DNA of 64,000 bases from an uncultured cyanobacterium (GTDB lineage: Bacteria > Cyanobacteriota > Cyanobacteriia > PCC-6307 > Cyanobiaceae): assembly GCA_963697335.1 (NCBI GenBank), contig CAVONQ010000018.1, positions 384,001-448,000 on the forward strand, written 5' to 3'. Shown one piece after another: positions 10,354 to 28,250 of this stretch. Position 1 is the stretch's first letter; each line of letters starts with the position of its first letter. The notes under the pieces were generated by a model. That model made no database searches. It was not told where the DNA came from and saw only the letters and a list, made by a program, of their open reading frames with translations. The position numbers and the translations under genes were made by a program.

Positions 10354-12198
10354 GTGAACAAACGCTGGCGCAACGCGGGGCTGTACGTGCTCCTGGTGAT
10401 CGTGGTGATCGCCGTGGGCACCGCTTTCCTCGACCGTCCGGATCCCGCCAACGCGCCGCGCACCCTGCGCTACAGCGACTTTGTGGAAGCCGTGCAGGAC
10501 AACGAAGTGTCCCGGGTGCTGATCGCCCCAGACCGCGGCACCGCCCAGGTGGTGGAAAACGATGGCCGCCGCGCCGTGGTCAACCTGGCTCCCGACAAGG
10601 ACCTGCTCAAGCTGCTCACGGACCACAACGTGGACATCGCTGTACAGCCCAGCCGGGAGCCTGCCGCCTGGCAGCAGGCCGCCGGCAGCCTGATCTTCCC
10701 GCTGCTGTTGCTGGGAGGACTGTTCTTCCTGCTGCGGCGGGCCCAGGGGGGTGGCGGCAACCCGGCCATGAGCTTCGGCAAGAGCAAGGCGCGGGTGCAG
10801 ATGGAGCCCCAGACCCAGGTGACCTTCGGCGATGTGGCCGGCATTGAGGGCGCCAAGCTGGAGCTCACCGAAGTGGTGGACTTCCTCAAGAATCCGGATC
10901 GCTTCACCGCCGTTGGCGCCAAGATCCCGAAGGGCGTGCTGCTGGTGGGCCCCCCCGGCACCGGCAAGACCCTCCTGGCCAAGGCCGTGGCCGGTGAGGC
11001 CGGCGTGCCCTTCTTCTCGATTTCCGGTTCGGAATTTGTGGAGATGTTTGTGGGCGTGGGTGCCAGCCGGGTGAGGGATCTGTTCGAGCAGGCCAAGAAG
11101 AGCGCCCCCTGCATCGTCTTCATTGATGAGATCGACGCCGTGGGGCGTCAGCGGGGCGCTGGCCTCGGCGGCGGCAACGACGAGAGGGAGCAGACGCTCA
11201 ACCAGCTGCTCACCGAGATGGATGGCTTCGAGGGCAACACCGGCATCATCATCGTGGCGGCCACCAACCGCCCCGACGTGCTGGATGCCGCGCTGCTGCG
11301 CCCGGGCCGTTTCGATCGTCAGGTGGTGGTGGATCGCCCCGATTACAGCGGTCGCCTCCAGATTCTCGAGGTGCATGCCCGCGGCAAGACCCTGGCCAAG
11401 GATGTGGACCTCGACAAGGTCGCTCGCCGCACGCCTGGCTTCACCGGTGCCGATCTGGCCAACCTGCTGAATGAGGCGGCCATCCTCGCGGCCCGGCGCC
11501 AGCTCACCGAGGTGTCGATGGACGAGGTCAACGACGCGATCGAGCGGGTGATGGCCGGTCCGGAGAAGAAAGACCGGGTAATGAGCGAGAAGCGCAAGCG
11601 CCTGGTGGCTTACCACGAATCCGGCCACGCTCTGGTGGGGGCCCTGATGCCCGATTACGACCCCGTGCAGAAGATCTCGATCATTCCCCGCGGCCAGGCC
11701 GGTGGCCTCACCTTCTTCACCCCCAGTGAGGAGCGCATGGAATCGGGGCTCTATTCCAGGGCTTATCTGCAGAACCAGATGGCCGTGGCCCTGGGTGGCC
11801 GCGTGGCCGAGGAACTGGTCTACGGCGACGATGAGGTCACCACCGGTGCCTCCAACGACCTGCAGCAGGTGGCTCGGGTGGCGCGCCAGATGGTCACCCG
11901 CTTCGGCATGAGCGAGCGCATCGGTCCCGTGGCCCTCGGCCGCAGCCAAGGGGGCATGTTCCTCGGCCGCGACATCGCAGCCGAGCGCGACTTCTCCGAG
12001 GACACCGCCGCCACCATCGATGAGGAGGTGAGCCAGCTGGTGGAAGACGCCTACCGCCGGGCCACCGAAGTGCTCAGCAACAACCGGGCCGTGCTCGATC
12101 AGCTGGCCGAGCTGCTCGTGGAGAAGGAAACCGTGGATGCCGAGCAGCTCCAGGAGCTGCTTCTGCAGAGCGATGTGCGGGTGGCCGAGTACGTCTGA
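10354..12198 (+). CDS. ftsH: ATP-dependent zinc metalloprotease FtsH (FtsH3-like N-terminus)
   Basis: Two TM segments, [17 protein letters not shown] zinc motif. Confidence 0.97.
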
Positions 12199-12220
12199 GC
12201 CCCTCGGCTGATCAGGCCTG

Positions 12221-12847
12221 TTGATCGCCTCTTTCCCCCCGCTTCTCGATGCGCTGCACCACCAGCCCCTGCTGGTGGTGCTTCGGGCTGAGCAGCCACG
12301 GCAGCTCGAGCCGGCCTTGACGGCCCTCGAGGCGATGGGGCTGGTCCACGTGGAGATCAACTGGCAACCTCACCCTGACTGGGCAGCCCAGTGCCGCGCG
12401 CTGCAGCAGGCCCACCCACGGCTGAGGTTGGGGGCGGCGTCGCTCTGCAGCCTGGAAGCGATCCGGGCCACGGCCGCCGCCGGTCTGGGCTACGGCATGT
12501 CGCCCGTTCTGGCACCGGAACTCTGGCAGGAGGCCTGCCGCCTGGGGCTGGCCCTCGTGCCCGGGGTGTTCACGCCCAGCGAAGTCCTGCAAGCCAGGCA
12601 GCTGGGCTGTCCGGCCGTGAAGCTGTTTCCCGCGGTCACCGTTGGGCCCCAATACTGGGGCCGTCTACGCGGGCCCCTGGGCGCCCTGCCGATCTGCATC
12701 GCTGCAGGCGGCCTGGCCCCCCACGACGTGCGGCCCTGGCTGCAGGCTGGCGTCGATGCCGTGGCCCTGGGCGGCAGCCTCGACCAGGACGGTGCCATGG
12801 GCGCGCTGAAGGCCCTGATCAGCGACCTGCGCCCAACCTCCGCCTGA
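12221..12847 (+). CDS. eda: KDPG/KHG aldolase family
   Basis: VPGVFTPSEV, VKLFPA, AAGGL, VALGGSL. Confidence 0.85.
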   Translation: MIASFPPLLDALHHQPLLVVLRAEQPRQLEPALTALEAMGLVHVEINWQPHPDWAAQCRALQQAHPRLRLGAASLCSLEAIRATAAAGLGYGMSPVLAPELWQEACRLGLALVPGVFTPSEVLQARQLGCPAVKLFPAVTVGPQYWGRLRGPLGALPICIAAGGLAPHDVRPWLQAGVDAVALGGSLDQDGAMGALKALISDLRPTSA

Positions 12848-12853
12848 GTCCCT

Positions 12854-13945
12854 TCACCACAGGCTGCACTGTCCTTGCTGGCGCAGCAGGTGATCAGCCA
12901 GCACCAGGGCCACCATCGCCTCCACCATCGGCACCGCCCTGGGCAGCACACAGGGGTCGTGGCGTCCCTTGGCGGCCAGGGTGGTGGCGGCGCCGCTGAC
13001 ATCGATGGTCTGCTGCTGCTTGCGGATCGTGGCGGTGGGTTTGAACGCCACCCGGATCACGATCATCTCGCCGTTGCTGATCCCGCCCTGGATGCCGCCT
13101 GAATTGTTGGTGGCCGTGTGCAGGCTGCCGTCGTCCGTGGGCAGGAAGGCGTCGTTGTGCTCACTGCCCTTCAGCAGGGTGCCGGCGAAGCCGGAGCCGA
13201 TCTCGAAGCCCTTGGTGGCCGGCAGCGACATCACCGCCTTGGCCAGATCGGCCTCCAGCTTGTCGAACACCGGCATGCCCAGCCCCACCGGCGGCCGCCG
13301 CACCACGCATTCGATCACGCCGCCGCAGGAATCGCCTTCCCGGCCGATCGCCTCGATCCGCTCCACCATCCGCTCGGCGGTCTCGGGGTCGGGGCAGCGC
13401 ACGATGGTCGCCTCCACGTCGTCGAGGCTGACGCTGGCCGGGTCGATCCCATGGGCCTCGATGGTGTGGATCCGCTTCACCCAGGCCAGCACCTCGGTGC
13501 CGCCCGCCCTGGCCAGCAGTTGTTTGGCGATGGCGCCTGCGGCCACGCGACCGATGGTTTCCCGTGCTGAGGCTCGACCGCCGCCGCTGCGGGCCTGGAT
13601 GCCGTACTTGGCCTGGTAGGTGGCATCGGCGTGGGAGGGGCGGAAGGCCACCGCCATCTCCTGGTAATCCCCAGGGCGCTGGTCCTTGTTGCGCACCACC
13701 ATGGCGATGGGCGTGCCGAGGGTCTGCCCGTCCAGCAGGCCGCTGAGAATCTCGACGCGATCGTCTTCCTTGCGCGGGGTGGTGATCTTGCTCTGGCCGG
13801 GTTTGCGGCGATCGAGATCCCGCTGGATGTCCTCCAGGGCGAGGGCCAGCCGCGGCGGGCAGCCATCCACGATCACCCCCACGCCACCACCGTGGGATTC
13901 GCCAAAGGTGCTGATGCGAAAGAGCTGGCCGAAGCTGCTTCCCAT
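12854..13945 (-). CDS. aroC: chorismate synthase
   Basis: [33 protein letters not shown] at 13945. Confidence 0.97.
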
Positions 13946-16443: not shown

Positions 16444-18024
16444 TTGAGCACCACCAGTCCCCACCGGGTGCTGCTCGTGAGGCTGCCCTGCAATCCGATT
16501 TTTCCGATCGGCCCCGTCTACCTCGCCGACCATCTGCACAAGCAGTTCCCTGATCTGCAGCAGCGGTTTCTCGACCTCGCCGCTCTGCCGGTGCTCGATG
16601 TGGAGCGCATTCTGGCCGCCGTGGTGGACAGTTTCCGCCCCACCCTGCTGGTGTTCTCCTGGCGTGACATCCAGATCTATGCCCCGGTGGATGGCCGCAG
16701 TGGCAACCCGCTGCAGCACTCCTTCGAGGTGTTCTACGCCCGCAACCCGCTCAAGCGGCTGCGCGGAGCCCTGGGGGGCCTGGGCCTGATGCGCGCTTTC
16801 TACGCCGAGCTCTGGCGCAACCTGCGGCTGGTGCGGCAAGGGGTGAAGCGGGCCCGGCGCTATCAGCCCGAAGCCCGCGCCGTGATCGGGGGCGGTGCCG
16901 TGAGTGTGTTCTATGAGCAGCTCGGGCGCCAGCTGCCCCCCGGCACGGTGGTGTCGGTCGGCGAGGGCGAACCCCTGCTGGAGAAGTTGGTCAGGGGCGA
17001 CTCCCTGGCCGGAGAGCGCTGCTTTGTGGCCGGCGAAGAGCCCCGCCCGGGTCTGATCCATGAGCAGCCCGGCAGTCTGGAGAAAACGGCCTGCAACTAC
17101 GACTACATCGCCTCGATCTGGCCCCAGCTCGACTGGTACCTCGAGGGGGGTGACTTCTACGTGGGGGTGCAGACCAAGCGGGGCTGTCCCCACAACTGCT
17201 GCTACTGCGTGTACACGGTGGTGGAGGGCAAGGCGGTGCGGGTGAATCCGGTGGAGGAGGTGATCGCTGAGATGGGGCAGCTCTACCGCCGGGGGGTGCG
17301 CGGCTTCTGGTTCACCGATGCCCAGTTCATCCCGGCCCGCCGCTACATCGAGGATGCCAAGGAATTGCTGCGGGCGATCCTGGCCGAAGGCTGGCACGAC
17401 ATCCGCTGGGCCGCCTACATCCGCGCCGACAATCTCGATGCCGAGCTGGCCGAACTGATGGTGGCCACCGGCATGGAGTATTTCGAGATCGGCATCACTT
17501 CGGGTTCCCAGGAGCTGGTGCGCAAGATGCGCATGGGCTACAACCTGCGCACCGTGCTGGAGAACTGCCGGCTGCTGGCCAGGGCCGGATTCCGCCACCA
17601 TGTGTCGGTGAACTACTCGTTCAATGTGATCGATGAGCGCCCCGAAACCATCCGCCAGACGGTGGCCTACCACCGCGAGCTGGAGCGCATCTTCGGCGCC
17701 GACAAAGTGGAACCGGCGATCTTCTTCATCGGCCTGCAGCCCCACACCCACCTGGAGCAATACGGCTTCGAACAGGGCCTGATCAAGCCGGGCTATAACC
17801 CGATGAGCATGATGCCCTGGGCGGCGCGCAAGACGCTCTGGAACCCCGAGCCGATGGGCAGCACCTTTGGGCGCATCTGTCTGGAGGCGTTTGACCGCAA
17901 CCCCGGCGACTTCGGCCGCACGGTGATGGACCTCCTGGAGCGGGATTACGGCCTGGCGCCCCTGGATGAGGCCCTCAGGGCTCCGGTGGAAGGCCGTCGC
18001 GCCCTCGCCAACGCGGTGCGCTGA
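16444..18024 (+). CDS. B12-binding-type radical SAM protein (conserved cyanobacterial PSII high-light acclimation family)
   Basis: RLPCNPIFPIG N-terminus, KRGCPHNCCYC, FWFTDAQF. Confidence 0.85.
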   Translation: MSTTSPHRVLLVRLPCNPIFPIGPVYLADHLHKQFPDLQQRFLDLAALPVLDVERILAAVVDSFRPTLLVFSWRDIQIYAPVDGRSGNPLQHSFEVFYARNPLKRLRGALGGLGLMRAFYAELWRNLRLVRQGVKRARRYQPEARAVIGGGAVSVFYEQLGRQLPPGTVVSVGEGEPLLEKLVRGDSLAGERCFVAGEEPRPGLIHEQPGSLEKTACNYDYIASIWPQLDWYLEGGDFYVGVQTKRGCPHNCCYCVYTVVEGKAVRVNPVEEVIAEMGQLYRRGVRGFWFTDAQFIPARRYIEDAKELLRAILAEGWHDIRWAAYIRADNLDAELAELMVATGMEYFEIGITSGSQELVRKMRMGYNLRTVLENCRLLARAGFRHHVSVNYSFNVIDERPETIRQTVAYHRELERIFGADKVEPAIFFIGLQPHTHLEQYGFEQGLIKPGYNPMSMMPWAARKTLWNPEPMGSTFGRICLEAFDRNPGDFGRTVMDLLERDYGLAPLDEALRAPVEGRRALANAVR

Positions 18025-18098: not shown

Positions 18099-20243
18099 GT
18101 GCGTTACGAGTGGGTCGAGCAACACGCCGAGGAGGATTGCGGCGCGGCCTGCCTGGCCACAGTGGCCCGCTACCACGGCCGCCGGCTGGCCCTCTCCCGG
18201 GTGCGCGAACTGGTGGGCACGGGGACCCGAGGCACCACCTTGCTGGGCCTGCGGCGGGGAGCCGACGCCGTCGGTTTCCATGCCCGGGCGGTGCGGGCCG
18301 ATGGGGCCCTGCTCGACCGCCTCGAGGCGCTGCCCCTGCCGGCGATCTGTCACTGGCAGGGAAACCACTGGGTGGTGCTGTACGGCCGGAAGGGCCGCAA
18401 GCTGGTGATTGCGGATCCGGCTGTCGGGATCCGCAGGTTGTCACCTGAGGAGTTTCGAGCCGGTTGGGGCAACGGGGTGCTGTTGCTGCTTGAGCCGGAT
18501 CTCAACCGTCTGCTGGAGCAGCCGCAGGAGGAGCGGCTGCCGTTTCTGCGCTTCCTGCGGCTGAGCTGGCCCTACCGGGGTTTGCTGCTGCAGGCCCTTG
18601 GCATCAACGTGGTGATCGGCCTGCTGGCCCTGGCCATGCCGCTGTTGATGCAGCTGCTCACCGATGATGTGCTGGTGCGCCGGGATAGCCAACTGCTCAC
18701 CAGCCTTGGCCTGGCGATGCTGTTTCTGTTTGTCTTTCGCAGCGCCATCAGCCTGATCCAGGGCCACATAGTGGGTCATTTCGCCCAGCGCCTTCAGCTG
18801 GGGATGGTGCTGGAGTACGGCCATCGGCTGCTGCGCTTGCCGATGACCTATTTCGACAGCCATCGCAGTGGCGAGGTGGTGAGCCGGATTGGCGACATCA
18901 GCCGGATTAATGCCCTGATCAGCGATCTGGTGTTGGGCCTGCCCAGTGACTTCTTCATTGCTGCCATCTCGCTGGTGGTGATGCTGATCTACAGCCCTCC
19001 ACTGACGGTCGTGTCCCTGTTGGCGTTTGGAATTTTGATCGCTTCCGGACTGCTATTTCTGCCAGCTCAATACGAAAAAAGCCGCCGCGTGATTGTGGAA
19101 TCCGCGGAGAATCAGGGGTTTCTGGTGGAGATCTTCCGTGGCGCCCAGGTGCTTAAAACCACCGAGGCGTTGCCCCAGGCCTGGGACGAGTACCAGCGCA
19201 ATTTCGGCAGCGTTGCGCACCTGCGTTGGGATGCACTGCAGTTGTCGTTGTTCAGTGGCACCACCACCGGGCTGCTGTCGCGGGTCACCACCCTGGCCCT
19301 CCTCTGGTATGGCAGCAGCTTCGTGATTTCTGGTCAACTCTCCATCGGCCAGTTGCTTGCTTTCAGCGGTATGAGCGGCAATGTGCTCGGTTTTCTGGAA
19401 TCCCTCGTGGACTTCACCGACGACTACCTGACCGCCAACGTGGTGATCAGGCGGCTCTCGGAGGTGCTGGAGGGCAGCCTGGAGGACCCTAAGGCGATCG
19501 ACAAGCCATGGGTGGCCCTGCCGCAGCCGTGCGAGATCCAGTGCCGCAATCTCAGCTTCCACCATGCCGGCCGGCTGGACCTGCTCAGCAACCTTCACCT
19601 CACCATTCCCGCCGCCTGCTGCACCGCCGTGATCGGGGAATCTGGCTGCGGCAAGAGCACCCTGGTGAAGCTGCTGGCCGGCCTCTATCCACCCCAGAGC
19701 GGCTCGATCCACTACGGACCCTACGGCCGTCACGACATCTCCCTGGACTGCCTGCGGCGGCAGGTGGTGCTGGTGCCCCAGGAGGCCCAGTTCTTCAACC
19801 GCACGATCTTCGAGAATTTTCGCTTCGCCTATCCCGACGTCAGCTTCGATCAGGTGGTGGCGGCCTGCGAGCGGGCACTGGCCGACGAATTCATCCGCGA
19901 CCTGCCGGACGGTTACCAGACCGTGCTGGGAGAATTCGGCGCCAACCTCTCGGGTGGTCAGCGCCAGCGCCTGGCGATCGCGCGCGCCCTGGTGTCCTGT
20001 CCGGCCGTGCTGATCCTGGATGAATCCACCGCCGCGTTGGACCCGGTGCTGGAGCGGCGCCTGATGGACAACCTCCTGCAGCATCGCAAGGGTTTGACCA
20101 CGGTGATGATCAGTCACCGCCCGAGCGTCATCCAGCGCTGTGATTGGCTGGTGTACCTGGAGCGAGGCCACGTCGTGTCCCAGGGTCGACCCCAGGACCT
20201 GGGCAACAGTGCACCACTGGCCCCCTACCTGCTGACGGCATGA
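18099..20243 (+). CDS. peptidase-containing ABC transporter (C39 peptidase + TMD + NBD), double-glycine peptide exporter
   Basis: Q...EDCGAACL (catalytic Cys), HWVV (His), IADPA (Asp); TM region; Walker A GESGCGKST, LSGGQRQR, LILDE, SHR. Confidence 0.95.
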   Translation: MRYEWVEQHAEEDCGAACLATVARYHGRRLALSRVRELVGTGTRGTTLLGLRRGADAVGFHARAVRADGALLDRLEALPLPAICHWQGNHWVVLYGRKGRKLVIADPAVGIRRLSPEEFRAGWGNGVLLLLEPDLNRLLEQPQEERLPFLRFLRLSWPYRGLLLQALGINVVIGLLALAMPLLMQLLTDDVLVRRDSQLLTSLGLAMLFLFVFRSAISLIQGHIVGHFAQRLQLGMVLEYGHRLLRLPMTYFDSHRSGEVVSRIGDISRINALISDLVLGLPSDFFIAAISLVVMLIYSPPLTVVSLLAFGILIASGLLFLPAQYEKSRRVIVESAENQGFLVEIFRGAQVLKTTEALPQAWDEYQRNFGSVAHLRWDALQLSLFSGTTTGLLSRVTTLALLWYGSSFVISGQLSIGQLLAFSGMSGNVLGFLESLVDFTDDYLTANVVIRRLSEVLEGSLEDPKAIDKPWVALPQPCEIQCRNLSFHHAGRLDLLSNLHLTIPAACCTAVIGESGCGKSTLVKLLAGLYPPQSGSIHYGPYGRHDISLDCLRRQVVLVPQEAQFFNRTIFENFRFAYPDVSFDQVVAACERALADEFIRDLPDGYQTVLGEFGANLSGGQRQRLAIARALVSCPAVLILDESTAALDPVLERRLMDNLLQHRKGLTTVMISHRPSVIQRCDWLVYLERGHVVSQGRPQDLGNSAPLAPYLLTA

Positions 20244-21385
20244 GCGAGCTTCCCGTCCGGGTGGCTGACGCCACCGAGAGCCAGCAGCTGCGCCCGGCCT
20301 CTGTTCAGGAGTTCCTGCCCTCGGTACGCCCCTGGGTGCGGCTGGCCGGCGTCGTGCTGGTGGGGAGTTTTGTGGCCGGCGTGGCGTTGATGGCGGTGTG
20401 GCCCTACCGAGTGGTGGTCAGAGCAGCAGGGTCTGTGCGGCCCAGTGGCGAGACCAGCCTGGTGCATGCGCCGCGGGATGGGCGGGTGAGGGAGATCCGC
20501 ATCCAGCCCAATCAGGAGGTCGAACGGGGTGAGGTGCTGGCGGTGATGGATCCCGCCGATCTGGAGGGCAGGGAGCTGAAGCTGCGGCAGGGCGGCACAT
20601 CGCTCGATGACCAGCTGGCGGCGCAGCGCAGGGAGAACACGGCTGCACTGCAGGCGGCACGACTGGAGGTCGAGAAGGCCCGGGCCACCCTTGATCTGGC
20701 CCGCTCGGAGTACCAGCGCTACAGCCAGCTCGTCAGCAGCGGTGCCGCCTCCCGGGAGCAGATGGAGGAGAAGCGTGCCAGTCTGAGCGTGGCGTCATCC
20801 AACCTGGCCAAGGCCCAGCGGGATGTGGAGCAGCAGCAGTCCCGGGGCGAGACTGCCCTGGCGAGACTGGGACAGCAACAGGTTGAAAACCAGGCGGAAC
20901 GGGCCCAGCTCGGCCGTGATCTCGGACGCCAGCTGATCAGGGCGCCCGTAGGGGGTGTGATCTTCTCCCTCACCCTCCGCAACCCCCTCCAGGTGGTCAC
21001 GGCCGGCCAGGAGCTGGCGCAGATCGCGCCCGAGGGGGCGCCGTACCTGGCGAAGGTGCAAGTGTCATCAGCGGACATCGCCAATGTGGAGGTGGGCCAG
21101 CGGGCCGATCTGCGCCTGGCGGGCTGTCCCTTCCCCGATTTCGGGACCCTGCGGGCCGAGGTGGTGTCCGTGGCTCCTGATGCGGCTGCGGTTCCGTCTG
21201 CTCCCGGTGGCGCGGGGGCCAGTGGCTATGCGGTGACACTGCGCCCGGAGCAGACCCAGCTGCGCTCGTCGTCCCGAAGCTGTGAGCTGCGGCTGGGCAT
21301 GGACCTCACAGCTGACATCACCACCCGGGTCGAGACCGTGCTCCAGTTCCTGTTGCGCAAGACCCGGCTGCTGGTGGGGCTGTGA
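20240..21385 (+). CDS. HlyD-family periplasmic adaptor of type I secretion
   Basis: ATGA overlap with exporter; one TM, lipoyl half-motifs (VERGEVLA / IRAPVGG), coiled coil, CPFPDFGTL, LRLGM..TADI. Confidence 0.93.
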   Translation: MSELPVRVADATESQQLRPASVQEFLPSVRPWVRLAGVVLVGSFVAGVALMAVWPYRVVVRAAGSVRPSGETSLVHAPRDGRVREIRIQPNQEVERGEVLAVMDPADLEGRELKLRQGGTSLDDQLAAQRRENTAALQAARLEVEKARATLDLARSEYQRYSQLVSSGAASREQMEEKRASLSVASSNLAKAQRDVEQQQSRGETALARLGQQQVENQAERAQLGRDLGRQLIRAPVGGVIFSLTLRNPLQVVTAGQELAQIAPEGAPYLAKVQVSSADIANVEVGQRADLRLAGCPFPDFGTLRAEVVSVAPDAAAVPSAPGGAGASGYAVTLRPEQTQLRSSSRSCELRLGMDLTADITTRVETVLQFLLRKTRLLVGL

Positions 21386-21516
21386 TGCTGTGGCGACCCC
21401 CCTGGGCGGGACGCTTCCTCCTGCTGGGCGTGGGATTCATCGCAGTTCAGGCGTGGTGGGCTCCGCGCTGGGTTCTGCCAGCAGCCAGCACAGCCCCATG
21501 GGGGAGCAACAGCAGG

Positions 21517-21572
21517 GGTAAGAGTTTTCTTGCCGCTTTCCTGCCAATCTCTTACCGCCCATCTTGTAGTTT
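21517..21572 (+). promoter_or_regulatory. putative regulated promoter of precursor 1
   Basis: GTAAGA then TCTTGCC/TCCTGCC/TCTTACC at 21528, 21539, 21550 (11-bp period) and TAGTTT at 21567; same layout as 22090-22149. Confidence 0.65.
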
Positions 21573-21711
21573 ACGATCAGAACAGTCCCTTGGACTGATC
21601 AACCGATGGGCCAAACATGACCCACGTCTTGATCGCCAGAGGTCGGACGTCCGTCTGTTCAGGCCTTTCTGAATACAGAGTCTGATTTAAGTTCATCAAG
21701 AGGAGCAATCC

Positions 21712-21942
21712 ATGAACACAGAATCCATAGCAGACATGAGCCTGCCGGGGCTCAATCTGCTCTCGGGAGCAGAGAGCTTCATCCACGATCTCAACCCTGA
21801 AGATGAGGCCTCGATCGCGGGCGGCAGTGGCAGGCGCAGCCGTCTGCGCAGCCGCCGCAGCCGCCTTCGCAGCCGCCTCCGCAACCGCCGCAGCCGTTTG
21901 CGCAGTCGCCGCAGCCGTCTGCGCAGCCGCCGCAGGCGTTAG
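21712..21942 (+). CDS. putative RiPP precursor 1: 38-aa double-glycine leader + 38-aa Arg/Ser-rich core
   Basis: SD AGGAG; leader ends DLNPEDEASIAGG; core SGRRSRLRSRRSRLRSRLRNRRSRLRSRRSRLRSRRRR; downstream of C39 exporter. Confidence 0.88.
   Translation: MNTESIADMSLPGLNLLSGAESFIHDLNPEDEASIAGGSGRRSRLRSRRSRLRSRLRNRRSRLRSRRSRLRSRRRR
21835..21933 (+). repeat. imperfect tandem repeats (CGCAGCCGY units) encoding RSRL/RSR
   Basis: Repeated cgcagccgtctg / cgcagccgc blocks visible in sequence. Confidence 0.85.
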
Positions 21943-22089
21943 GAGGGTGGGTGGCCAGGTCTCCCAACAGGGGCTGTGCCCCCCGATGTTCACAAGGGGG
22001 CGCGCACCTCTCGAGGGTTGCATGGCTGGGGTGATGAAGTCACCTCGCTTGGCGTGACGGGAGCCCTACCCCATGGCGGTCACGCAGGG

Positions 22090-22149
22090 GAACAGTAAGA
22101 CTACTCTTACCATTCTCCTGCCATTCTCTTACTGTTCACCTGTTACATT
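22090..22149 (+). promoter_or_regulatory. putative regulated promoter of precursor 2
   Basis: GTAAGA then TCTTACC/TCCTGCC/TCTTACT at 22105, 22116, 22127 and TACATT at 22144. Confidence 0.65.
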
Positions 22150-22300
22150 CCTATTAGTCCAGCCAAGAAGGCCGGACTGGTGGACAGGGCCGAAAGCCGC
22201 ACACAGATCACAGATCACAGAGCACTGATGGTCTTGTTGCCTACGGTTCTCTCCATCGCTCAATCAACCCTGGCACTTTGCCGAAACGGAGGAATACCGC

Positions 22301-22528
22301 ATGAACACACAAACCACAGCCGATGTTGCGTTGCTGGGCCTCGACCTGCTGCTCGGGCCCGATAGCCTCATCAGTGAGCTCAGTCCTGAGGATGAGGCCT
22401 CGATCTCGGGTGGCCGCCGTCGCCGCAGCCGCAGCGGCATCAGCCGTCCCAGCCGCAGCCGTCCCAGCCGCCGCAGCCGTCCCAGCCGTCCCAGCCGTAG
22501 CTTCCGGCGCAACCGCAGGCGCCGTTGA
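22301..22528 (+). CDS. putative RiPP precursor 2: 38-aa double-glycine leader + 37-aa Arg/Ser/Pro-rich core
   Basis: SD GGAGG; leader ends ELSPEDEASISGG (23/38 identical to precursor 1 leader); core RRRRSRSGISRPSRSRPSRRSRPSRPSRSFRRNRRRR. Confidence 0.88.
   Translation: MNTQTTADVALLGLDLLLGPDSLISELSPEDEASISGGRRRRSRSGISRPSRSRPSRRSRPSRPSRSFRRNRRRR
22422..22500 (+). repeat. imperfect tandem repeats (AGCCGTCCC / AGCCGC) encoding SRP/SR
   Basis: agccgtccc occurs four times, interspersed with agccgc. Confidence 0.85.
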
Positions 22529-22573
22529 GCAAGTGACTGACCGGGGAACTTCTCCCCCTGTCGAGAGCTTCAG

Positions 22574-22609
22574 ACCCCGGGGCTGCTGGATGCCAGCCTC
22601 GGGGTTTTT
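22574..22609 (+). terminator. intrinsic terminator-like hairpin between precursor 2 and the modifying enzyme
   Basis: ACCCCGGGGCTG...CAGCCTCGGGGT stem (one G-U pair) followed by T-run. Confidence 0.75.
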
Positions 22610-22671
22610 CTATAGCCTTGATCAAGTCCCTTGGGGCTGGAGCTTGTTGTTGCCGTGGTGAGTCTGGGGTC

Positions 22672-25164
22672 ATGGTCGTTCGTTTGAATTCGGAGGGCAT
22701 CCACGAGTATTTGATGCATCAGGGTCTGTGCGATTCAACGGATGTCGTTGAAGACGTTCAACAGTTGATTGGCAAAAATATGAATCTGCTGGTTCAACTC
22801 ACAAAGCCTGATGCTCAACCTTCAAGAGCCCGTCACTTGCTGATCAAGCAGGGACCGATCGGGCGATCGGAGCTGCCCAAACAGGATTTTGAAGAGGAAT
22901 GGAGAATTCATCAGCTGCTGGCTGGCCACGAACAGCTGTTTCCCCTGCAGGCCTTGCTGCCAGAGGGGATCAAGTTTGACGTCGCCAATGCCATTCAGAT
23001 CTTTCGATATCTTGAATCGTATGGCGATCTTGGCGACTTCTATGACGATGCCAAGCGGTTTCCCACCAAGGTCCCTGTGGCCCTCGGCAGTGCCCTAGCC
23101 GCGCTGCATCAGGCAACGTTCAGCCGCCAAGACTATCTTCTCCAATTAGATCCAGAGAGTGCTGATGAGGGATGTGAAAAGCCTGACTTTCGCGATGAGC
23201 TTGAGAATCTCACTCCAGAGATCTTCCGGCAGATCTCGATTGATGGTTTGCAATTCTACAGATTGTACAACCGATCAGAAGAGCTCTCGAAGGCCATAGC
23301 TCAGCTGGAGCATGACTATGAACCATGCTGCTTGATCCACAATGACCTGAAGTTTAGAAATATCCTGCTTCATGATGATTGGTCCCGCTGGCAGCCCCCG
23401 TCGTCCCTTCCTGCTTCTGTCCATGAGTTGTGTCTGCCCGATGCTCAGGGCCTTGTGCGTCTGATTGATTGGGAGCAATGGGCATGGGGTGACCCGGCCT
23501 TTGATGTGGGCGCCCTTGTGGCTGAGTATCTGCGGCTGTGGTTAAAGAGTCTGGTGCTCAGCCGCGATGTTGACCTGGTGGTGGCGTTGCAGCTTGCTGC
23601 CGTGCCCCTGGACACGCTGCAGCCCTCCCTTGCGGCCTTCATGCAGGCCTATCTGGCCCAGTTCCCCGGCATCCTGGCGGCGTTTCCCGCCTTCCCAGCA
23701 CGGGTGCTGCGCTTCGCCGGCCTCGGTTTGATTGGGGCGATTCAGGACAGGCTGCACTATCGGGAGTCCTGTGGAAATCTGGAAATTGCGATGCTGCAAG
23801 TGGCCAGATCATTGCTCTGCAATCCGGAAGCCGCCATGGTCACGGTGTTCGGCTGCAGGGATGTTCAACCTGATGGCTTTCAACCTTCTGGCCTTGAACC
23901 TGACCTTGCACCTGGCCTTGAACGTGACGTTGGAGACAGCGGCAGCCCTTCTCCCGCCCAATCCCCACGCGACAAGTGTGAACTGCAGGGCCAGGTGCCT
24001 CTGCCCCTTTGGGTGCAGCGTGGCCCTAGTGAGGAGGCTCTCGCTGACCTGATCACCAATGTTCGAATTGAGCCTCCACTGATTTTTCATCCGGCCTACC
24101 AGGTCCTTGATCTGGTCCATCCAGGGGAACCTCAGAGCACGGGGATGGATCAACGCCAGCAATGCTTGAGCAAGTTGCCTGACGACCTTCGCCAGGCCTA
24201 TCTGGTGCGTCAGGTGAGAAACTATCTGCATGATATCTACTTCAGTGGCGAGCGGGAAAGGAAGGGGCCTGGGATTGCGGCGACCAAGGAGTTCAAGAAC
24301 GATTCTGTTTCTGGACTCAACGTGGATTACTTTCATCGGATCGAGCTGGCCAATGGCGGCACAGGCTTTCCTGACCCCGACTGGATGATCCTTCGCTGGG
24401 ATGGCGATCGTGCTCAGGTGGAAAAAGATGGTCTGCGACTCTGGGTTAATCCCTGCGTTGACCTTGTGAAGGATGAGGCCTTGAAGCTGAGCTCCATCCG
24501 GCGTGAGGGTCCACCATCAGTAACTGTGGGTGCAGCAGTGGGTGCAGCAATGGCTGTGGGAACAACGGTGGTGTTACGGTTGCCCAATGCAGTTTTGACT
24601 GAAGAGAGCTACAGCGCGATCGGCAATGGAGGAGAGCCTGCTCCTGATCAGCCTTGCATCATCATCTACTTCAATATCAGTGCTGAAGGTGCTCTTCTGC
24701 TGATGGATGTTCTGACCAAGGCCCTGAATCTGCAGGGATGCCCCTTCGCTTTGACCATCCTGACTGATCCTGCCTGCTATGGCCGATTCAACAGTGTCAC
24801 CTTGATGATCGAGGCTACTCACTATCAGGACGTACGCACCATTCTCTGTGAGCTTCAGGCCAGGCTTCAGCCCCATCTGAGCCATCCGATTCCCCTGTTC
24901 ACCTGGCCTCTGGCCCCGGGCATCGGTCTGGCCGAATGCCCGCAGGACGAGGATGACTTTGGTCTGTCTCGATGCCAGATCCTGGCCGAAGCCCTGATCC
25001 TGGCTGATGCCAGTCCCGAGTCCCGGCGGCAAGCCATGCGAGCAAAGTTTTCCGAGCGCAAGCTGAACTGGCAACATCCCCACCTCAATCCTGAATCAGA
25101 CTCCCACTACCCACCCCTGCCGCCACGGGACCGTAGCCAGGCGGCGAATGTCCATCTCAACTAG
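22672..25164 (+). CDS. fused APH/choline-kinase-family phosphotransferase + HopA1-like domain (class V lanthipeptide LanK/LanY-like)
   Basis: N-half: KNMNLLV, LLIKQ, HNDLKFRNILL, IDWE, GDPAFDVG; C-half: YFNI..EGA, PLFT.PLAPGIGLAE.P...FGLSRCQILAEAL resembling HopA1-family proteins; likely ATG 22672. Confidence 0.8.
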   Translation: MVVRLNSEGIHEYLMHQGLCDSTDVVEDVQQLIGKNMNLLVQLTKPDAQPSRARHLLIKQGPIGRSELPKQDFEEEWRIHQLLAGHEQLFPLQALLPEGIKFDVANAIQIFRYLESYGDLGDFYDDAKRFPTKVPVALGSALAALHQATFSRQDYLLQLDPESADEGCEKPDFRDELENLTPEIFRQISIDGLQFYRLYNRSEELSKAIAQLEHDYEPCCLIHNDLKFRNILLHDDWSRWQPPSSLPASVHELCLPDAQGLVRLIDWEQWAWGDPAFDVGALVAEYLRLWLKSLVLSRDVDLVVALQLAAVPLDTLQPSLAAFMQAYLAQFPGILAAFPAFPARVLRFAGLGLIGAIQDRLHYRESCGNLEIAMLQVARSLLCNPEAAMVTVFGCRDVQPDGFQPSGLEPDLAPGLERDVGDSGSPSPAQSPRDKCELQGQVPLPLWVQRGPSEEALADLITNVRIEPPLIFHPAYQVLDLVHPGEPQSTGMDQRQQCLSKLPDDLRQAYLVRQVRNYLHDIYFSGERERKGPGIAATKEFKNDSVSGLNVDYFHRIELANGGTGFPDPDWMILRWDGDRAQVEKDGLRLWVNPCVDLVKDEALKLSSIRREGPPSVTVGAAVGAAMAVGTTVVLRLPNAVLTEESYSAIGNGGEPAPDQPCIIIYFNISAEGALLLMDVLTKALNLQGCPFALTILTDPACYGRFNSVTLMIEATHYQDVRTILCELQARLQPHLSHPIPLFTWPLAPGIGLAECPQDEDDFGLSRCQILAEALILADASPESRRQAMRAKFSERKLNWQHPHLNPESDSHYPPLPPRDRSQAANVHLN

Positions 25165-25181
25165 CCAGCAATCAGGATGCG

Positions 25182-25886
25182 ATGAGAATTCTAGTGGTTG
25201 AAGATGATGCTGGGATTTCCAGATTCATCCAGCAAGGACTGAGCGAGGCTGGCTACGCTATCGACGTGGCTTCTGATGGTCCCGAAGGATTGCGATTTGC
25301 CGAGGCCGCTGACTACGATGCCGTAGTGCTCGACGTGTTGCTGCCTGGTCAGGATGGCTTGAGCGTCCTGAAGAGCCTGCGCCAGCAGGGCCTTCAGACC
25401 CCGGTGCTGCTGTTGACGGCCCTGGATACCGTCGAAGACCGAGTGCTGGGTTTGGATGCAGGGGCTGATGACTACCTGATCAAACCATTTGACTTCACAG
25501 AACTACTGGCTCGCCTGCGCGCATTGCTCCGGCGCCCGCCCTTGCATGCCGATGTCGTGCTCAGAGTGGGTCGTCTGCAGATGGACACAGTCCACAGGAT
25601 TGTCAAGCGGGATGACCATCCGATTGAGCTCAGCCCACGGGAGTATTCCCTGCTGGAATATCTGATGCGCAATGCGGATCACGTTCTCAGCCGCACCCAG
25701 ATCGCCCAGCATGTCTGGAGTTTTGACTTTTATGGAGACTTCAAGGTGATTGATGTCTATATTGGCTATCTGCGTCGAAAAATCGATCAGCAGGGATCGC
25801 CGTCGTTGATCAGAACCGTGCGTGGTGTGGGTTATTCGATGAACGCTCATGTGGAGGCTTCCCCTGCTGAAGGAGTCGGCCCCTGA
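25182..25886 (+). CDS. OmpR/PhoB-family response regulator
   Basis: MRILVVEDD, LDVLLPG (phospho-Asp), GADDYLIKPF, winged helix LSPREYSLLEYL...IRTVRGVGY. Confidence 0.95.
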   Translation: MRILVVEDDAGISRFIQQGLSEAGYAIDVASDGPEGLRFAEAADYDAVVLDVLLPGQDGLSVLKSLRQQGLQTPVLLLTALDTVEDRVLGLDAGADDYLIKPFDFTELLARLRALLRRPPLHADVVLRVGRLQMDTVHRIVKRDDHPIELSPREYSLLEYLMRNADHVLSRTQIAQHVWSFDFYGDFKVIDVYIGYLRRKIDQQGSPSLIRTVRGVGYSMNAHVEASPAEGVGP

Positions 25887-25911
25887 TCCCATTACCTTCC
25901 ATGTTTAGATC

Positions 25912-27375
25912 ATGGTGATGCAGCGAAAGTCCTGGCAAAGTCTGCGCTTGAGGCTGGTGGCCTGGTACAGCTTGTTGGCCGGCGTTTCGATGCTTGTTTC
26001 CGATGGCTATACCTATCTGGAGTTTCGACAGACCCTGCTGGCCCAGATTGACCGTTCTCTGGAGGTCAGCGCAATTCAGGCCCGCAAGAATCTTGACGAT
26101 GAAGTTGATGCGCTGGTGTTTGACCCCCGCCGGGACGCGCCGCTGCTGGCCTCCCTGCTTAATGATGCGGGCGTAGAAATCTATTTGATCAGTTTGGATG
26201 GTTCGATCAAGGAGCAGTTCGGAGACTCGCTCTCATCCCTCAGCACATCCAACCTCGAACCTGGATACCATACCGTCGCCAGGTCCAGTGGGCGTTGGCG
26301 AACCTATACCAAGGAACTTCTTGCCAGTGGGGGTGATCCCTCGGGATGGCTGAAGGTGGCTCAGTCGCTCAAGCCCATGGATGCCACCTTGGCCAGGGTG
26401 TTTCAGCGCAATCTTCTCAAGCTACCCATTCTGCTTGGCATGATTGCCCTTGGCGGACTGTTTCTGGCCAACCGTGCCCTGCAACCCATCGCCCGAATCA
26501 CAAGAACGATTCAGCATATTCGGGTGAGTGGAGATCTCGCCCAGCGCATTCACTACAAGAGCAGTGCTGCTGATGAACTGGCGCGCCTGGCTACTCTCAT
26601 TGATGGGATGCTGGATTCCATTCAGTCCACCTTTGACCACGAAAGACGATTCACTGCCGATGCATCCCATGAGCTTCGCACCCCGCTGACAGCCATGAAG
26701 GGTCGTCTGCAGGTGACCCTGAGCCAACTCCGCACGGTCGACACTTACGAAGAGACCCTCAGGGCGATCGGGCTGGAAGTGGATCGTTTGATTCGTCTCA
26801 GCAATGATCTGCTGCTGCTCTCCCGTCTGGAGCAGAACCACATCAATCCTCCCATGGAAAAGGTGGATCTTGGCCATTTACTCGCCGAGTCGGCTGCCCA
26901 GATTCAGCCGCTGGCTGAACTTCGCCATCTCCATCTGACGACGACCCTTGAGCCCGATCTTTTTATCCAGGGATACCCAGACCATCTGATTCGTTTGTTT
27001 CTGAACCTGCTCGATAATGCCGTCAAAAATACTCCCGATGAGGGCTCTGTGGGTGTGCAGGCCCTGACCTTCTCAAGCATGGTGCAGGTCACCCTTCGTG
27101 ACAGCGGCGTCGGCATCCCCTCTGAGCACCTGCCCCATCTGTTTGAACGCTTTTATCGCGTCGAGAAATCCCGTTCACGCGCCTTGGGTGGCACAGGTCT
27201 GGGCCTGGCCATTGCCCAGGAAATCGTCCATCGCCACCACGGCACGATCTCCGTGGCGAGTCAGCCTGGCCTGGGGACGACCTTCACGATCAGATTTCCA
27301 TGTCATCGCGATGCCGCAGCCGATTCCCATGCCCCTCAGCCCAGGCACCGACTGGGATCAGCAGAGTCCAGCTAG
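25912..27375 (+). CDS. membrane sensor histidine kinase (2 TM, HAMP, HisKA, HATPase)
   Basis: FTADASHELRTPL, NLLDNAVK, DSGVGIP, FERFYR, GTGLGLAI. Confidence 0.95.
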   Translation: MVMQRKSWQSLRLRLVAWYSLLAGVSMLVSDGYTYLEFRQTLLAQIDRSLEVSAIQARKNLDDEVDALVFDPRRDAPLLASLLNDAGVEIYLISLDGSIKEQFGDSLSSLSTSNLEPGYHTVARSSGRWRTYTKELLASGGDPSGWLKVAQSLKPMDATLARVFQRNLLKLPILLGMIALGGLFLANRALQPIARITRTIQHIRVSGDLAQRIHYKSSAADELARLATLIDGMLDSIQSTFDHERRFTADASHELRTPLTAMKGRLQVTLSQLRTVDTYEETLRAIGLEVDRLIRLSNDLLLLSRLEQNHINPPMEKVDLGHLLAESAAQIQPLAELRHLHLTTTLEPDLFIQGYPDHLIRLFLNLLDNAVKNTPDEGSVGVQALTFSSMVQVTLRDSGVGIPSEHLPHLFERFYRVEKSRSRALGGTGLGLAIAQEIVHRHHGTISVASQPGLGTTFTIRFPCHRDAAADSHAPQPRHRLGSAESS

Positions 27376-28250
27376 CCGCTCCTCCCATGGGCCTGTTCAT
27401 TGCTGCCCTGGCACCGGGGAGGGCCTTGGCGCTGTTGAACGAGCAGCACAGCCAGCAGCCCCAGCCAGCCGATCGCACCCCCCAGTGGGTTGGTGCCTGA
27501 GCCCACACCGCCGGGCCCGGCCCACCAGCCGGGCGCCTCGGCCGACACCGCCAGCAGCCCGCTCTGCACCAGGAACCAGCCGCCCACGAGGCCACCGTGC
27601 AGCGCCGCCGGCCCCCACAGCAGGCCGTTCCCCCCTTGCCTCTCCCGGGCCAGCACCACCCCCAGCAGGATCAGGCCCCCCAGCAGGCTGAATGCCAGGA
27701 GCCCATTCTCCTGATACCAGGGGTGCACCAAGCCAAACACCAGGGCCTGCAGCAGCAGCGCCAGGGGATCCTTCAGCCCCAGCCGCAGTTCACCCCAGAG
27801 CCAGCCGCGAAATAGCAGCTCCTCCGCCAGGCCCACGCCGCAGGCCAGCAGCAGGGCATTCACGAGCAGGCCCCCATCCAACCTGCCCAGCCAGCGGGCC
27901 TGCCCGCTGAGCAGCAGCGCCACGCTCACCAGTGCCAGCAAGGCCAGGGCTTTGGCCAACCCCCTGGCGGCGCTGGCCAGGGCTCGGCGGGGGCTGCAGA
28001 TGAGGCCAAGGGTCCTCCAGGGTCGCGACACCCCCCAGGCGGTGCGCAGACGCCACGGCAGCGTGGCCAGCAGAAGGGCAAAGGAGAGCGACACGCCGGC
28101 CAGGTCCACCTGGTCAGGCCGCCAGCCAGGTGCCAGCCAGCCCAGGGGCCGGGAGAGCAGGAAGCCCACGCCATAGAGCACGGGCACATAGAGCACCGTG
28201 CCCCACCAGCGGGGCATGGGTGCAGGCCCAGCCGGGCCTGGCGCCGCCAT
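27372..28250 (-). CDS. CPBP (CAAX/Abi) family intramembrane protease
   Basis: EELLFRG, FGLVH, LHGG motifs; multiple TM segments. Confidence 0.88.
   Translation of the reverse strand: MAAPGPAGPAPMPRWWGTVLYVPVLYGVGFLLSRPLGWLAPGWRPDQVDLAGVSLSFALLLATLPWRLRTAWGVSRPWRTLGLICSPRRALASAARGLAKALALLALVSVALLLSGQARWLGRLDGGLLVNALLLACGVGLAEELLFRGWLWGELRLGLKDPLALLLQALVFGLVHPWYQENGLLAFSLLGGLILLGVVLARERQGGNGLLWGPAALHGGLVGGWFLVQSGLLAVSAEAPGWWAGPGGVGSGTNPLGGAIGWLGLLAVLLVQQRQGPPRCQGSNEQAHGRSG

What the first reader, a model, noticed from the sequence alone, without database searches (positions are those of the whole stretch)
21712..22528. Two paralogous precursors: conserved acidic leader, hypervariable poly-Arg/Ser cores
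Seen: both leaders are exactly 38 aa, 23/38 identical, and end L(N/S)PEDEASI(A/S)GG. Core 1 is 38 aa (22 Arg, 9 Ser, 5 Leu, 1 Gly, 1 Asn; RSRL repeats). Core 2 is 37 aa (19 Arg, 10 Ser, 4 Pro; SRP repeats). Neither core has acidic residues, Cys, Thr or Lys; both contain R-N-R and end in RRRR. Conserved leader with divergent core is the RiPP hallmark. The cores resemble protamines or eukaryotic RS domains, which are regulated by Ser phosphorylation. Speculative roles: membrane-active or cell-penetrating antimicrobial, binding of eDNA/polyphosphate/EPS, or a silaffin-like zwitterionic mineral- or metal-templating peptide. Arg:Ser is about 2:1, so full phosphorylation would roughly neutralise the charge, possibly as self-protection before export.
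Basis: partly seen in the sequence, partly recalled or inferred. Interest (0 to 1): 0.85.

Follow-up and report, generated by a model that had tools for sequence, protein, structure and literature searches.

The report
Arginine-serine phosphopeptides from a disarmed dehydratase
Two small cyanobacterial genes encode arginine/serine-rich peptides that sit between an exporter and a fused kinase-lyase enzyme whose lyase half has lost its catalytic residues, so the cell likely secretes multiply phosphorylated, arginine-rich peptides, a rare kind of natural product whose role is untested.

Summary
Both ORFs are real double-glycine (GG) leader RiPP precursors in a 9.3-kb inserted cassette: C39 exporter, HlyD, A1, A2, kinase-HopA1 fusion, response regulator and sensor kinase.

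It is a fused homologue of the class V lanthipeptide dehydratase LanK/LanY (top fold matches LxmK and LxmY). Its kinase motifs are intact. Its lyase half has Ile, Thr and Met where CaoY has Arg187, Lys219 and Tyr236. All four lyase residues survive in 0 of 69 fusions, against 34 of 46 stand-alone cyanobacterial lyases. Every complete locus examined whose lyase lacks Arg187 and belongs to this kinase lineage has a polycationic core.

The likely product is a secreted, linear, Cys-free poly-Arg peptide with several phosphoserines, not a lanthipeptide (about 65%). It would work like phospeptin, by an unrelated enzyme. The ecological role is untested and no RNA data were found.

The leader/enzyme family and some Arg-rich members are already listed by Eyles 2021, but the dead-lyase reading was not found in print. 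This scan reached the same reading twice before, on other genomes with Lys/Ser cores. New variant of a known kind.

The parts
18099..20243 (+). Peptidase-containing ABC transporter (C39 peptidase, ABC membrane and ATPase domains); predicted to cut the leader after GG and export the core
   Evidence: Pfam PF03412, PF00664, PF00005. Cys14/His90/Asp106 triad-type motifs, Walker A and signature present. The only tblastn match to this C39 domain in the genome.
20240..21385 (+). HlyD-type periplasmic adaptor; the likely ATG overlaps the exporter's stop codon
   Evidence: PF13437, TIGR01843 below cut-off, ORF list
21519..21572 (+). Conserved upstream element of A1: TAAGA-N4-TCTTRC, three half-sites at 11-bp period, then a TAnnnT hexamer 11 nt later; candidate OmpR-family operator and -10 box (inferred)
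   Evidence: Upstream of 9 of 11 precursors and of the precursor in G734. The strict pattern, derived from these same sequences, hits only the two sites here in the genome.
21712..21942 (+). Precursor A1: 38-aa GG leader (21712-21825) and 38-aa Arg/Ser/Leu core (21826-21939)
22096..22149 (+). Second copy of the upstream element, before A2
22301..22528 (+). Precursor A2: 38-aa GG leader (22301-22414) and 37-aa Arg/Ser/Pro core (22415-22525)
22572..22610 (+). GC-rich hairpin followed by a T run, between A2 and the enzyme gene; terminator-like (inferred)
   Evidence: RNAfold. The simple terminator scan did not report it (0 sites).
22672..25164 (+). 830-aa fusion of an APH-type (LanK) kinase and a HopA1-type (LanY) lyase. 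Kinase K59, D225, N230, D266 intact. Lyase positions I664, T695, R705, M712 correspond to CaoY R187, K219, R229, Y236.
   Evidence: PF01636 and PF17914; NF038156 E 3e-24, below cut-off; alignments to PDB 9DK1; residue table; model pLDDT 86.5, top six Foldseek hits are LxmY/LxmK chains
25182..25886 (+). OmpR-family response regulator (CusR/CopR-like); travels with the cassette
   Evidence: Close orthologue in 5 of 32 genus genomes, and all 5 carry the cassette.
25912..27375 (+). Membrane sensor histidine kinase (HAMP, HisKA, HATPase); periplasmic domain 2CSK_N/CusS-like, with a conserved acidic DDEV motif

Best explanation
A1 and A2 are GG-leader RiPP precursors whose neighbouring fused enzyme keeps an intact kinase but lacks three of four lyase catalytic residues, so it likely phosphorylates several core serines without removing the phosphate, and the C39 transporter is predicted to cut after GG and secrete linear, cysteine-free, arginine-rich phosphopeptides. 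The dead lyase domain is probably kept as a folding partner and phosphate-binding clamp: its phosphate-binding Arg is invariant and the domain is under purifying selection. The adjacent two-component system probably switches on each precursor through the repeated upstream element. Role (weakly inferred, about 35% given this chemistry): the phosphates damp the charge of a +19 to +22 polycation inside the producer and during export, and outside the cell the partly phosphorylated or dephosphorylated peptide acts on anionic surfaces such as competitors' envelopes, eDNA or polysaccharide. Shown: genes, synteny, residue states, selection. Inferred: phosphorylation, lack of elimination, cleavage, export, regulation, role.
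For: Lyase: the window protein aligns to LxmY (9DK1_B) with I, T, R, M at the R, K, R, Y positions. LxmY R189/K221/R231/Y238 has the same spacing as CaoY R187/K219/R229/Y236. In CaoY, K219A gave only phosphorylated peptide and R187A mostly phosphorylated peptide (PMC9486802). All four residues are kept in 0 of 69 distinct fusions (R187 7, K219 49, R229 69, Y236 1), against 34 of 46 stand-alone cyanobacterial lyases. Kinase: HxD, N and DWE are kept in 67 of 67, the ATP Lys in 65 of 67. No second HopA1 domain was found in the genome. Enzyme-anchored census: 9 of 9 HopA1 loci in the window's family have an Arg/Ser precursor upstream. In family f6, 16 of 20 fetched loci lack R187 and have polycationic cores, 2 are cut by contig ends, and the 2 with intact lyases have hydrophobic cores. 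G734, found by the regulator alone, has the whole cassette. Three genomes with no adjacent exporter carry a 74-76% identical one elsewhere. Precedent: phospeptin (PMC9259500).
Against: Nothing biochemical was tested, and no RNA run was listed. 3 of 69 fusions, and the G734 enzyme (99% identical to one of them), keep both R187 and K219 and lack only Y236, yet G734 has an Arg/Ser core; part of the family may still eliminate. The lyase domain is still conserved (dN/dS 0.16-0.33, kinase 0.13-0.23). The CaoY numbering was transferred through LxmY by spacing, not by aligning CaoY itself, and the His57 equivalent was not securely placed. CaoK alone gave at most four phosphates, and the lyase-mutant complexes two or three, so occupancy may be far below 9-10. 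The cationic-core kinases form one side of a single branch, so the link between dead lyase and cationic core is one event, not many. The stand-alone comparison set leans towards the best HMM scorers.
Confidence: 0.65

Rival explanations
1. The lyase half is still active through a changed active site, and the product is a linear poly-dehydroalanine, poly-arginine peptide (reactive, net charge about +20).
For: R229 is invariant in 69 of 69 fusions and K219 is kept in 49 of 69. The domain is under purifying selection and folds like LxmY. A small subclade keeps R187 and K219. LanY already differs from OspF at some catalytic positions.
Against: The window enzyme lacks both residues whose Ala mutants stop elimination in CaoY, and also the Tyr. 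Different orthologues carry many different residues at these sites (13 at R187, 9 at K219, 11 at Y236), which is the pattern of relaxed constraint rather than a new catalytic set.
Confidence: 0.15
2. The chemistry is as in the best explanation, but the product is a fully phosphorylated, near-neutral zwitterion that serves as a secreted matrix, adhesive or mineral-binding material rather than a charge-masked polycation. This rival concerns the role only.
For: In 46 homologues the median (R+K-D-E)/(S+T) is 2.0, and net charge at full phosphorylation is within 5 of zero in 43. Each precursor has its own upstream element, and a terminator-like hairpin follows A2, as expected for bulk production. 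GG-leader proteins exported by a C39 transporter promote biofilm in Synechococcus elongatus (PMC4997328, abstract).
Against: Those 46 were found with a profile that includes the cores, so they share composition by selection. Filamentous relatives have ratios of about 2-4. Lyase-dead CaoK/CaoY complexes reach only low occupancy.
Confidence: 0.25
3. The peptides are exported essentially unmodified. The fusion acts as a leader-binding chaperone, or phosphorylates only transiently.
For: Some distant homologues have few or no Ser/Thr (P0146 has none). Whether this kinase acts on these cores was not tested.
Against: Kinase catalytic residues are invariant, and Ser or Thr is kept at 3 or more in 46 of 46 close cores.
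Confidence: 0.12
4. The peptide is mainly a signal sensed by the adjacent histidine kinase (an auto-inducing loop). This rival concerns the role only.
For: The two-component pair travels with the cassette. The sensor domain keeps an acidic DDEV motif in all 9 distinct orthologues aligned. A repeated operator-like element precedes 10 of 12 precursors.
Against: Low-complexity cores of variable length carry little specific information. Filamentous relatives use a different two-component pair. The sensor domain also resembles metal-sensing CusS domains.
Confidence: 0.12
5. The peptides are intracellular, protamine-like nucleic-acid binders regulated by phosphorylation, and are not exported.
For: Composition. 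Three loci (L015, L017, L018) have no exporter beside them.
Against: Canonical GG leader. Those three genomes hold a 74-76% identical exporter elsewhere. TolC-type proteins are present in the genome.
Confidence: 0.05

Closest known systems
HopA1/phosphotransferase-associated cyanobacterial RiPP precursors: Family 1A and small networks 58, 103, 118, 142 of Eyles et al. 2021 (PMC8153245); probably also the type-B LanA of Liang et al. 2022 (PMC9486802)
   Same: Cyanobacterial GG leader, kinase plus HopA1 pair, several precursors per cluster. The paper's dataset already lists Arg/Ser- and Lys/Ser-rich precursors of this leader type, including one from Cyanobium sp. PCC 7001.
   Different: Its main text has no occurrence of 'arginine', 'cationic', 'inactive' or 'phosphorylated' and treats the pair as a dehydratase; in the passages read, products are left undetermined. 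Here the two enzymes are fused and the lyase has decayed. Liang's set required Cys in the core; its Figure S6 is an image I could not read.
Class V lanthipeptide dehydratase LanK/LanY (CaoK/CaoY of cacaoidin; LxmK/LxmY of lexapeptide, PDB 9DK1-9DK3; TvaC/D and TsaC/D of thioamitides)
   Same: Same two folds and the same kinase motifs.
   Different: One polypeptide. Lyase R187, K219 and Y236 lost. No Cys in the cores. No cyclase, decarboxylase or reductase in the cassette. Export through a C39/HlyD system.
Phospeptin (EmbA/EmbM, Paoli et al. 2022, PMC9259500)
   Same: A dehydratase with mutated elimination residues yields a phosphorylated linear RiPP. This is what the system most likely works like.
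   Different: EmbM is LanM-like and phosphorylates Thr (two residues according to PMC10783134). Here the enzyme is APH/HopA1-type and the cores are poly-Arg with 9-10 Ser.
EbfG1-4/PteB of Synechococcus elongatus (PMC4997328)
   Same: Cyanobacterial GG-motif small proteins secreted by a C39 transporter, with a non-antibiotic role (abstract).
   Different: No kinase-lyase is mentioned in the abstract. Sequence relationship not tested.
Protamines, SR-protein RS domains and silaffins (recalled)
   Same: Arg(Lys)/Ser-rich low-complexity peptides whose charge is tuned by Ser phosphorylation (recalled, not tested).
   Different: Compositional likeness only. No Pfam or NCBIfam match for A1 or A2. Those proteins are eukaryotic and are not made as GG-leader precursors.

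Membership tests
GG-leader RiPP exported by a C39 transporter | Conserved leader ending in GG, under purifying selection | tested here: met
   11 of 11 family leaders are 38 aa; pN/pS 0.25 over 55 non-independent pairs
GG-leader RiPP exported by a C39 transporter | Linked C39 ABC transporter with catalytic Cys/His/Asp, HlyD adaptor, and TolC available | tested here: met
GG-leader RiPP exported by a C39 transporter | Leader is cleaved and core is secreted | not testable with these tools
   needs proteomics or reconstitution
Class V lanthipeptide (lanthidin) | LanK (APH-type) kinase with intact catalytic motifs | tested here: met
   NF038156 matched but below its cut-off (85.7 vs 315 bits)
Class V lanthipeptide (lanthidin) | LanY lyase with catalytic Arg187, Lys219, Arg229, Tyr236 (CaoY numbering) | tested here: not met
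   Ile, Thr, Arg, Met in the window enzyme
Class V lanthipeptide (lanthidin) | Cys in the core for lanthionine or AviCys rings | tested here: not met
   0 Cys in A1 and A2; 45 of 46 homologous cores have none
Class V lanthipeptide (lanthidin) | Cyclase, pseudo-kinase LanX or Cys decarboxylase in the cluster | tested here: not met
   None in 18099-27375; the flanking genes are not part of the cassette
Eyles 2021 HopA1-associated Family 1A | Cyanobacterial GG-leader peptide encoded beside a HopA1/phosphotransferase pair | tested here: met
Eyles 2021 HopA1-associated Family 1A | Falls in network 1 at the paper's 40% identity cut-off | tested here: inconclusive
   Not clustered here. Listed Arg-rich relatives lie in networks 1, 58, 118 and 142.
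Phospeptin | LanM-type dehydratase domain as maturase | tested here: not met
   Enzyme is APH plus HopA1
Phospeptin | Elimination residues mutated while the kinase residues are kept | tested here: met
   (analogous, in a different fold)
Phospeptin | Final product is a phosphorylated linear peptide | not testable with these tools
   needs mass spectrometry
Protamine / RS-domain / silaffin | Sequence homology beyond composition | tested here: not met
   No Pfam or NCBIfam hit at E 0.1 for A1 or A2

The most novel reading that the evidence does not exclude
Cyanobacteria have turned a lanthipeptide dehydratase into a dedicated multi-site peptide kinase, by disabling and often fusing its lyase half, and use it to make a family of secreted RS-repeat phosphopeptides with about two arginines per phosphoserine. 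These would be bacterial, exported counterparts of phosphorylation-switched RS domains, protamines or silaffins: neutral and soluble when phosphorylated, and polycationic once extracellular phosphatases remove the phosphates.
Probability: 0.3. Interest if true: 0.85.

Novelty: new variant of a known kind. Interest (0 to 1): 0.62.

Why it matters
Phosphorylated RiPPs are rare: a 2025 paper lists only a handful (PMC12639078). The large cyanobacterial HopA1/kinase family (570 peptides in 183 clusters in Eyles 2021) had no known product in the passages read. This locus gives a two-gene test, precursor plus one enzyme, for a whole branch of that family that annotation would misfile as lanthipeptide-like. 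It also offers a possible leader-directed, single-chain Ser kinase that accepts poly-Arg substrates, useful for making defined phospho-RS peptides. It asks why picocyanobacteria would spend nitrogen and phosphate on such a secreted peptide.

Tried and rejected
First reading, poly-dehydroalanine: held at 55% before the active-site check and dropped.

Flanking genes as part of the system: rejected. The B12 radical SAM gene (16444-18024) is the slr0320-type enzyme. It lies next to the CAAX protease gene (27372-28250) in 5 of 5 cassette-free genus genomes, so the cassette is an insertion between them; its right half has lower GC (0.53-0.61 against about 0.68). No F420-dependent reductase gene for D-Ala lies in the cassette; cofG upstream was not pursued.

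Pfam and NCBIfam gave no family for the precursors. The sigma-70 and terminator scan found 0 sites.

Expression: no RNA holder listed, which is no evidence either way. The small-share DNA runs were not used as habitat evidence.

Leader-kinase complex: not predicted, so leader binding remains untested.

The first tree was a quick one with long branches; it was redone without 4 long rows.

The profile searches with alignment A1 include the cores and are biased towards Arg/Ser cores; the enzyme-anchored census is the fairer test.

Literature searches for a description of this variant found none. The library lacks most subscription papers. The original LxmKY structure paper was seen only through a review.

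Full report
Observation. The two ORFs are as described: 38-aa leaders ending in GG, 23/38 identical, followed by cores of 38 aa (22 Arg, 9 Ser) and 37 aa (19 Arg, 10 Ser) with no Asp, Glu, Cys, Thr or Lys. Among 5,291 Met-started 60-100 aa ORFs in six frames of the 2.58-Mb genome, only these two have 19 or more Arg in the last 37 residues. No other copy of the leader was found in the genome. Two other assemblies carry the locus, and the indels listed inside the cores are in frame. Gene content (psbA; named homologues from Cyanobium and Synechococcus) points to a Cyanobium-like picocyanobacterium.

The cassette. Left to right on the + strand: C39 peptidase ABC transporter (18099-20243), HlyD adaptor (20240-21385), A1, A2, an 830-aa protein (22672-25164), an OmpR-family regulator and a sensor kinase. 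The flanking radical SAM and CAAX protease genes lie side by side in 5 of 5 cassette-free genomes of the genus, so the 9.3 kb between them is an inserted unit. Its right half is lower in GC. The exporter keeps Cys14, His90 and Asp106 and its ATPase motifs. Two TolC-type genes lie elsewhere in the genome.

The precursors are real genes. PF17914 matched 8 of 301 genomes of the window's family, at 9 loci. All 9 have a GG-leader, Arg/Ser-rich ORF directly upstream, 11 precursors in all, found with a leader-only profile (L001 and L002 duplicate L018 and L017 and are counted once). All 11 leaders are 38 aa. Leader residues 11-38 show pN/pS 0.25, pooled over 55 non-independent pairs; A1 against its nearest orthologue has 7 synonymous changes and 1 replacement. 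A conserved element precedes 9 of the 11: TAAGA-N4-TCTTRC, three half-sites at 11-bp period, then TAnnnT 11 nt later. The palindrome occurs at 4 sites in the genome: 2 here and 2 before rRNA-like sequence, against 0.27 expected. An 11-bp period is typical of OmpR/PhoB operators (recalled). A search with the regulator alone found 5 of 32 genus genomes. The one not seen before, G734, proved to hold the whole cassette with the element and an Arg/Ser precursor. Three genomes whose locus lacks an exporter have a 74-76% identical one elsewhere; the best matches in two cassette-free genomes are 56% and 35%.

The enzyme. The 830-aa protein joins an APH-type kinase (PF01636; weak LxmK match) to a HopA1 domain (PF17914, E 6e-38). 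Its only PDB sequence matches are the two chains of 9DK1, which is the lexapeptide dehydratase LxmKY (PMC12141560, passages). The AlphaFold model (pLDDT 86.5) has LxmY and LxmK chains as its six best fold matches. In class V lanthipeptides the kinase phosphorylates Ser/Thr and the lyase eliminates the phosphate. For CaoY, K219A leaves only phosphorylated peptide, R187A mostly phosphorylated peptide, and R229Q dehydrates poorly; Tyr236 matches a catalytic Tyr of SpvC (PMC9486802, parts 1-4 of 5 and supplement passages). A TvaD mutant likewise accumulates phosphorylated peptide (bioRxiv 10.1101/2020.08.21.260521, passages). A profile of cyanobacterial lyases aligns to LxmY (E 1e-13) with R, K, R and Y in register. 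LxmY R189/K221/R231/Y238 has the spacing of CaoY R187/K219/R229/Y236, which is how I transferred the numbering; CaoY itself was not aligned. The window enzyme has Ile664, Thr695, Arg705 and Met712 at those sites.

This is a family trait. Among 69 distinct fusions (75 before removing 6 duplicates; many are close kin) all four residues survive in 0: R187 in 7, K219 in 49, R229 in 69, Y236 in 1. Among 46 stand-alone cyanobacterial HopA1 proteins all four survive in 34 (that set leans towards the best HMM scorers). The kinase HxD, N and DWE motifs are intact in 67 of 67 fusions long enough to score. The lyase domain still evolves under constraint (dN/dS 0.16-0.33, kinase 0.13-0.23). That fits a structural partner role: CaoK and LxmK are poorly soluble without their lyase partners. 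Against a clean story, 3 of 69 fusions keep both R187 and K219, as does the G734 enzyme, which has an Arg/Ser core. For the window enzyme, which has neither, the case is strongest.

Dead lyase and cationic core go together. In family f6 of filamentous cyanobacteria, PF17914 matched 24 of 57 genomes at 29 places. I fetched 20, leaving out the six best-scoring stand-alone ones, two fragments and one seen before. Sixteen lack R187 and have a polycationic core (15 Arg-rich, 1 Lys/Ser). Two are cut off by contig ends. The two with an intact lyase have hydrophobic cores. Five of the 16 have separate kinase and lyase genes, so the decay does not depend on the fusion. A kinase tree of 43 rows (4 long rows dropped) puts the 26 cationic-core kinases on one side of one branch (100/99). 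This is a single event and the tree is unrooted, so it shows a lineage, not repeated co-evolution. Profile searches with the precursors gave 46 close cores, counting A1 and A2 (45 without Cys, all at least 30% Arg+Lys), and further ones including Arg/Thr, Lys/Ser and one acidic core. These searches are biased by the cores in the profile.

How it most likely works. The leader docks on the kinase (inferred from the CaoA-CaoK model; not tested here). Several core serines are phosphorylated and not eliminated. The C39 domain cuts after GG, and the core leaves through HlyD and TolC. Unmodified cores carry +22 and +19; full phosphorylation would give +4 and -1. Across the 46 close cores the median charge-to-Ser/Thr ratio is 2.0, which fits charge balancing. 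However, f6 cores run to about 4, and lyase-less or lyase-mutant CaoK reactions reached only 2-4 phosphates. I put the chemistry at 65%. For the role I favour charge masking of a surface-active polycation, narrowly over a secreted zwitterionic matrix material, with signalling third; none is tested. No RNA run was listed.

Comparison with what is known. It is not a class V lanthipeptide: lyase residues, Cys and cyclase all fail. It belongs to the broad cyanobacterial HopA1/phosphotransferase RiPP family that Eyles et al. described by genome mining (PMC8153245, passages and supplementary dataset rows). Their table already lists several Arg-rich precursors, one from Cyanobium sp. PCC 7001, but the main text does not use the words arginine, cationic, inactive or phosphorylated. 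It works like phospeptin, where a LanM-like enzyme with mutated elimination residues makes a phosphorylated linear peptide (PMC9259500, passages; PMC10783134, passages). Phosphorylated RiPPs are described as rare (PMC12639078, passages). EbfG/PteB is a cyanobacterial precedent for non-antibiotic GG peptides (PMC4997328, abstract and opening paragraphs). Searches found no paper on a fused or lyase-dead LanK-LanY or on poly-Arg phospho-RiPPs. Subscription papers, image figures such as Liang's Figure S6, and bioRxiv supplements could not be seen and may bear on this. Two earlier notes of this scan (e1-8365875, e1-8430445) reached the same disabled-lyase reading on other genomes with Lys/Ser cores. 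I had reached mine before (note), and they are not independent evidence.

Verdict. A real, conserved, patchily distributed RiPP cassette, and a new variant of a known kind, with a sharp and cheap test. Interest 0.62.

Noticed in passing
L053, L056, L058, L068, L069: A separate clade of kinase plus decayed-lyase gene pairs (K219 replaced by Gln or Glu) in family f7, where PF17914 matched 46 of 46 genomes. Four of the five lie beside what look like menaquinone genes (recognised from memory), and my regex found no GG precursor nearby. The substrate is unknown.
   Followed up: partly
L051:11640-11903 and L057:12504-12758: Clusters with intact lyases whose precursor has a short Arg run after GG, followed by an acidic, helix-like core; similar to network 8 of Eyles 2021.
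   Followed up: no
L012 and L013 (G132): One genome carries two cassettes on either side of the radical SAM/cofG genes. The exporter gene of the first appears broken into pieces, and its precursor lacks the upstream element.
   Followed up: partly
P0144; P0135, P0142; P0146: The same leader family also carries an Asp/Lys-rich acidic core, Arg/Thr repeat cores, and a Ser/Thr-free basic core; genomic context not seen.
   Followed up: no
L002: The record title names a Mesorhizobium MAG, but the genes are picocyanobacterial; likely a mislabelled or mixed bin.
   Followed up: no
L074, L076, L078: Glycosyltransferase-like genes (recognised from memory, not scanned) lie next to the cassette in several filamentous genomes and might further modify the peptide.
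   Followed up: no
L088:1501-4270 and 10720-12861: A kinase/intact-lyase cluster with at least six diverse GG precursors, next to a repeat-core precursor and two enzymes that look like a graspetide (microviridin-type) system (recalled).
   Followed up: no
window 21969-22011 and about 22201-22225: A strong hairpin without a T run after A1, and a 7-bp tandem repeat in the A2 leader region that is one unit shorter in two other assemblies.
   Followed up: no
G000:C1:92598 and C14:189267: The TAAGA-N4-TCTTAC palindrome also occurs in the AT-rich stretch beside two rRNA-like contig ends, without the triple repeat; probably chance.
   Followed up: partly
L090, about 18055: In G734 a second copy of the upstream palindrome precedes the exporter gene, which suggests the regulator also controls export there; the window has no such copy.
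   Followed up: no
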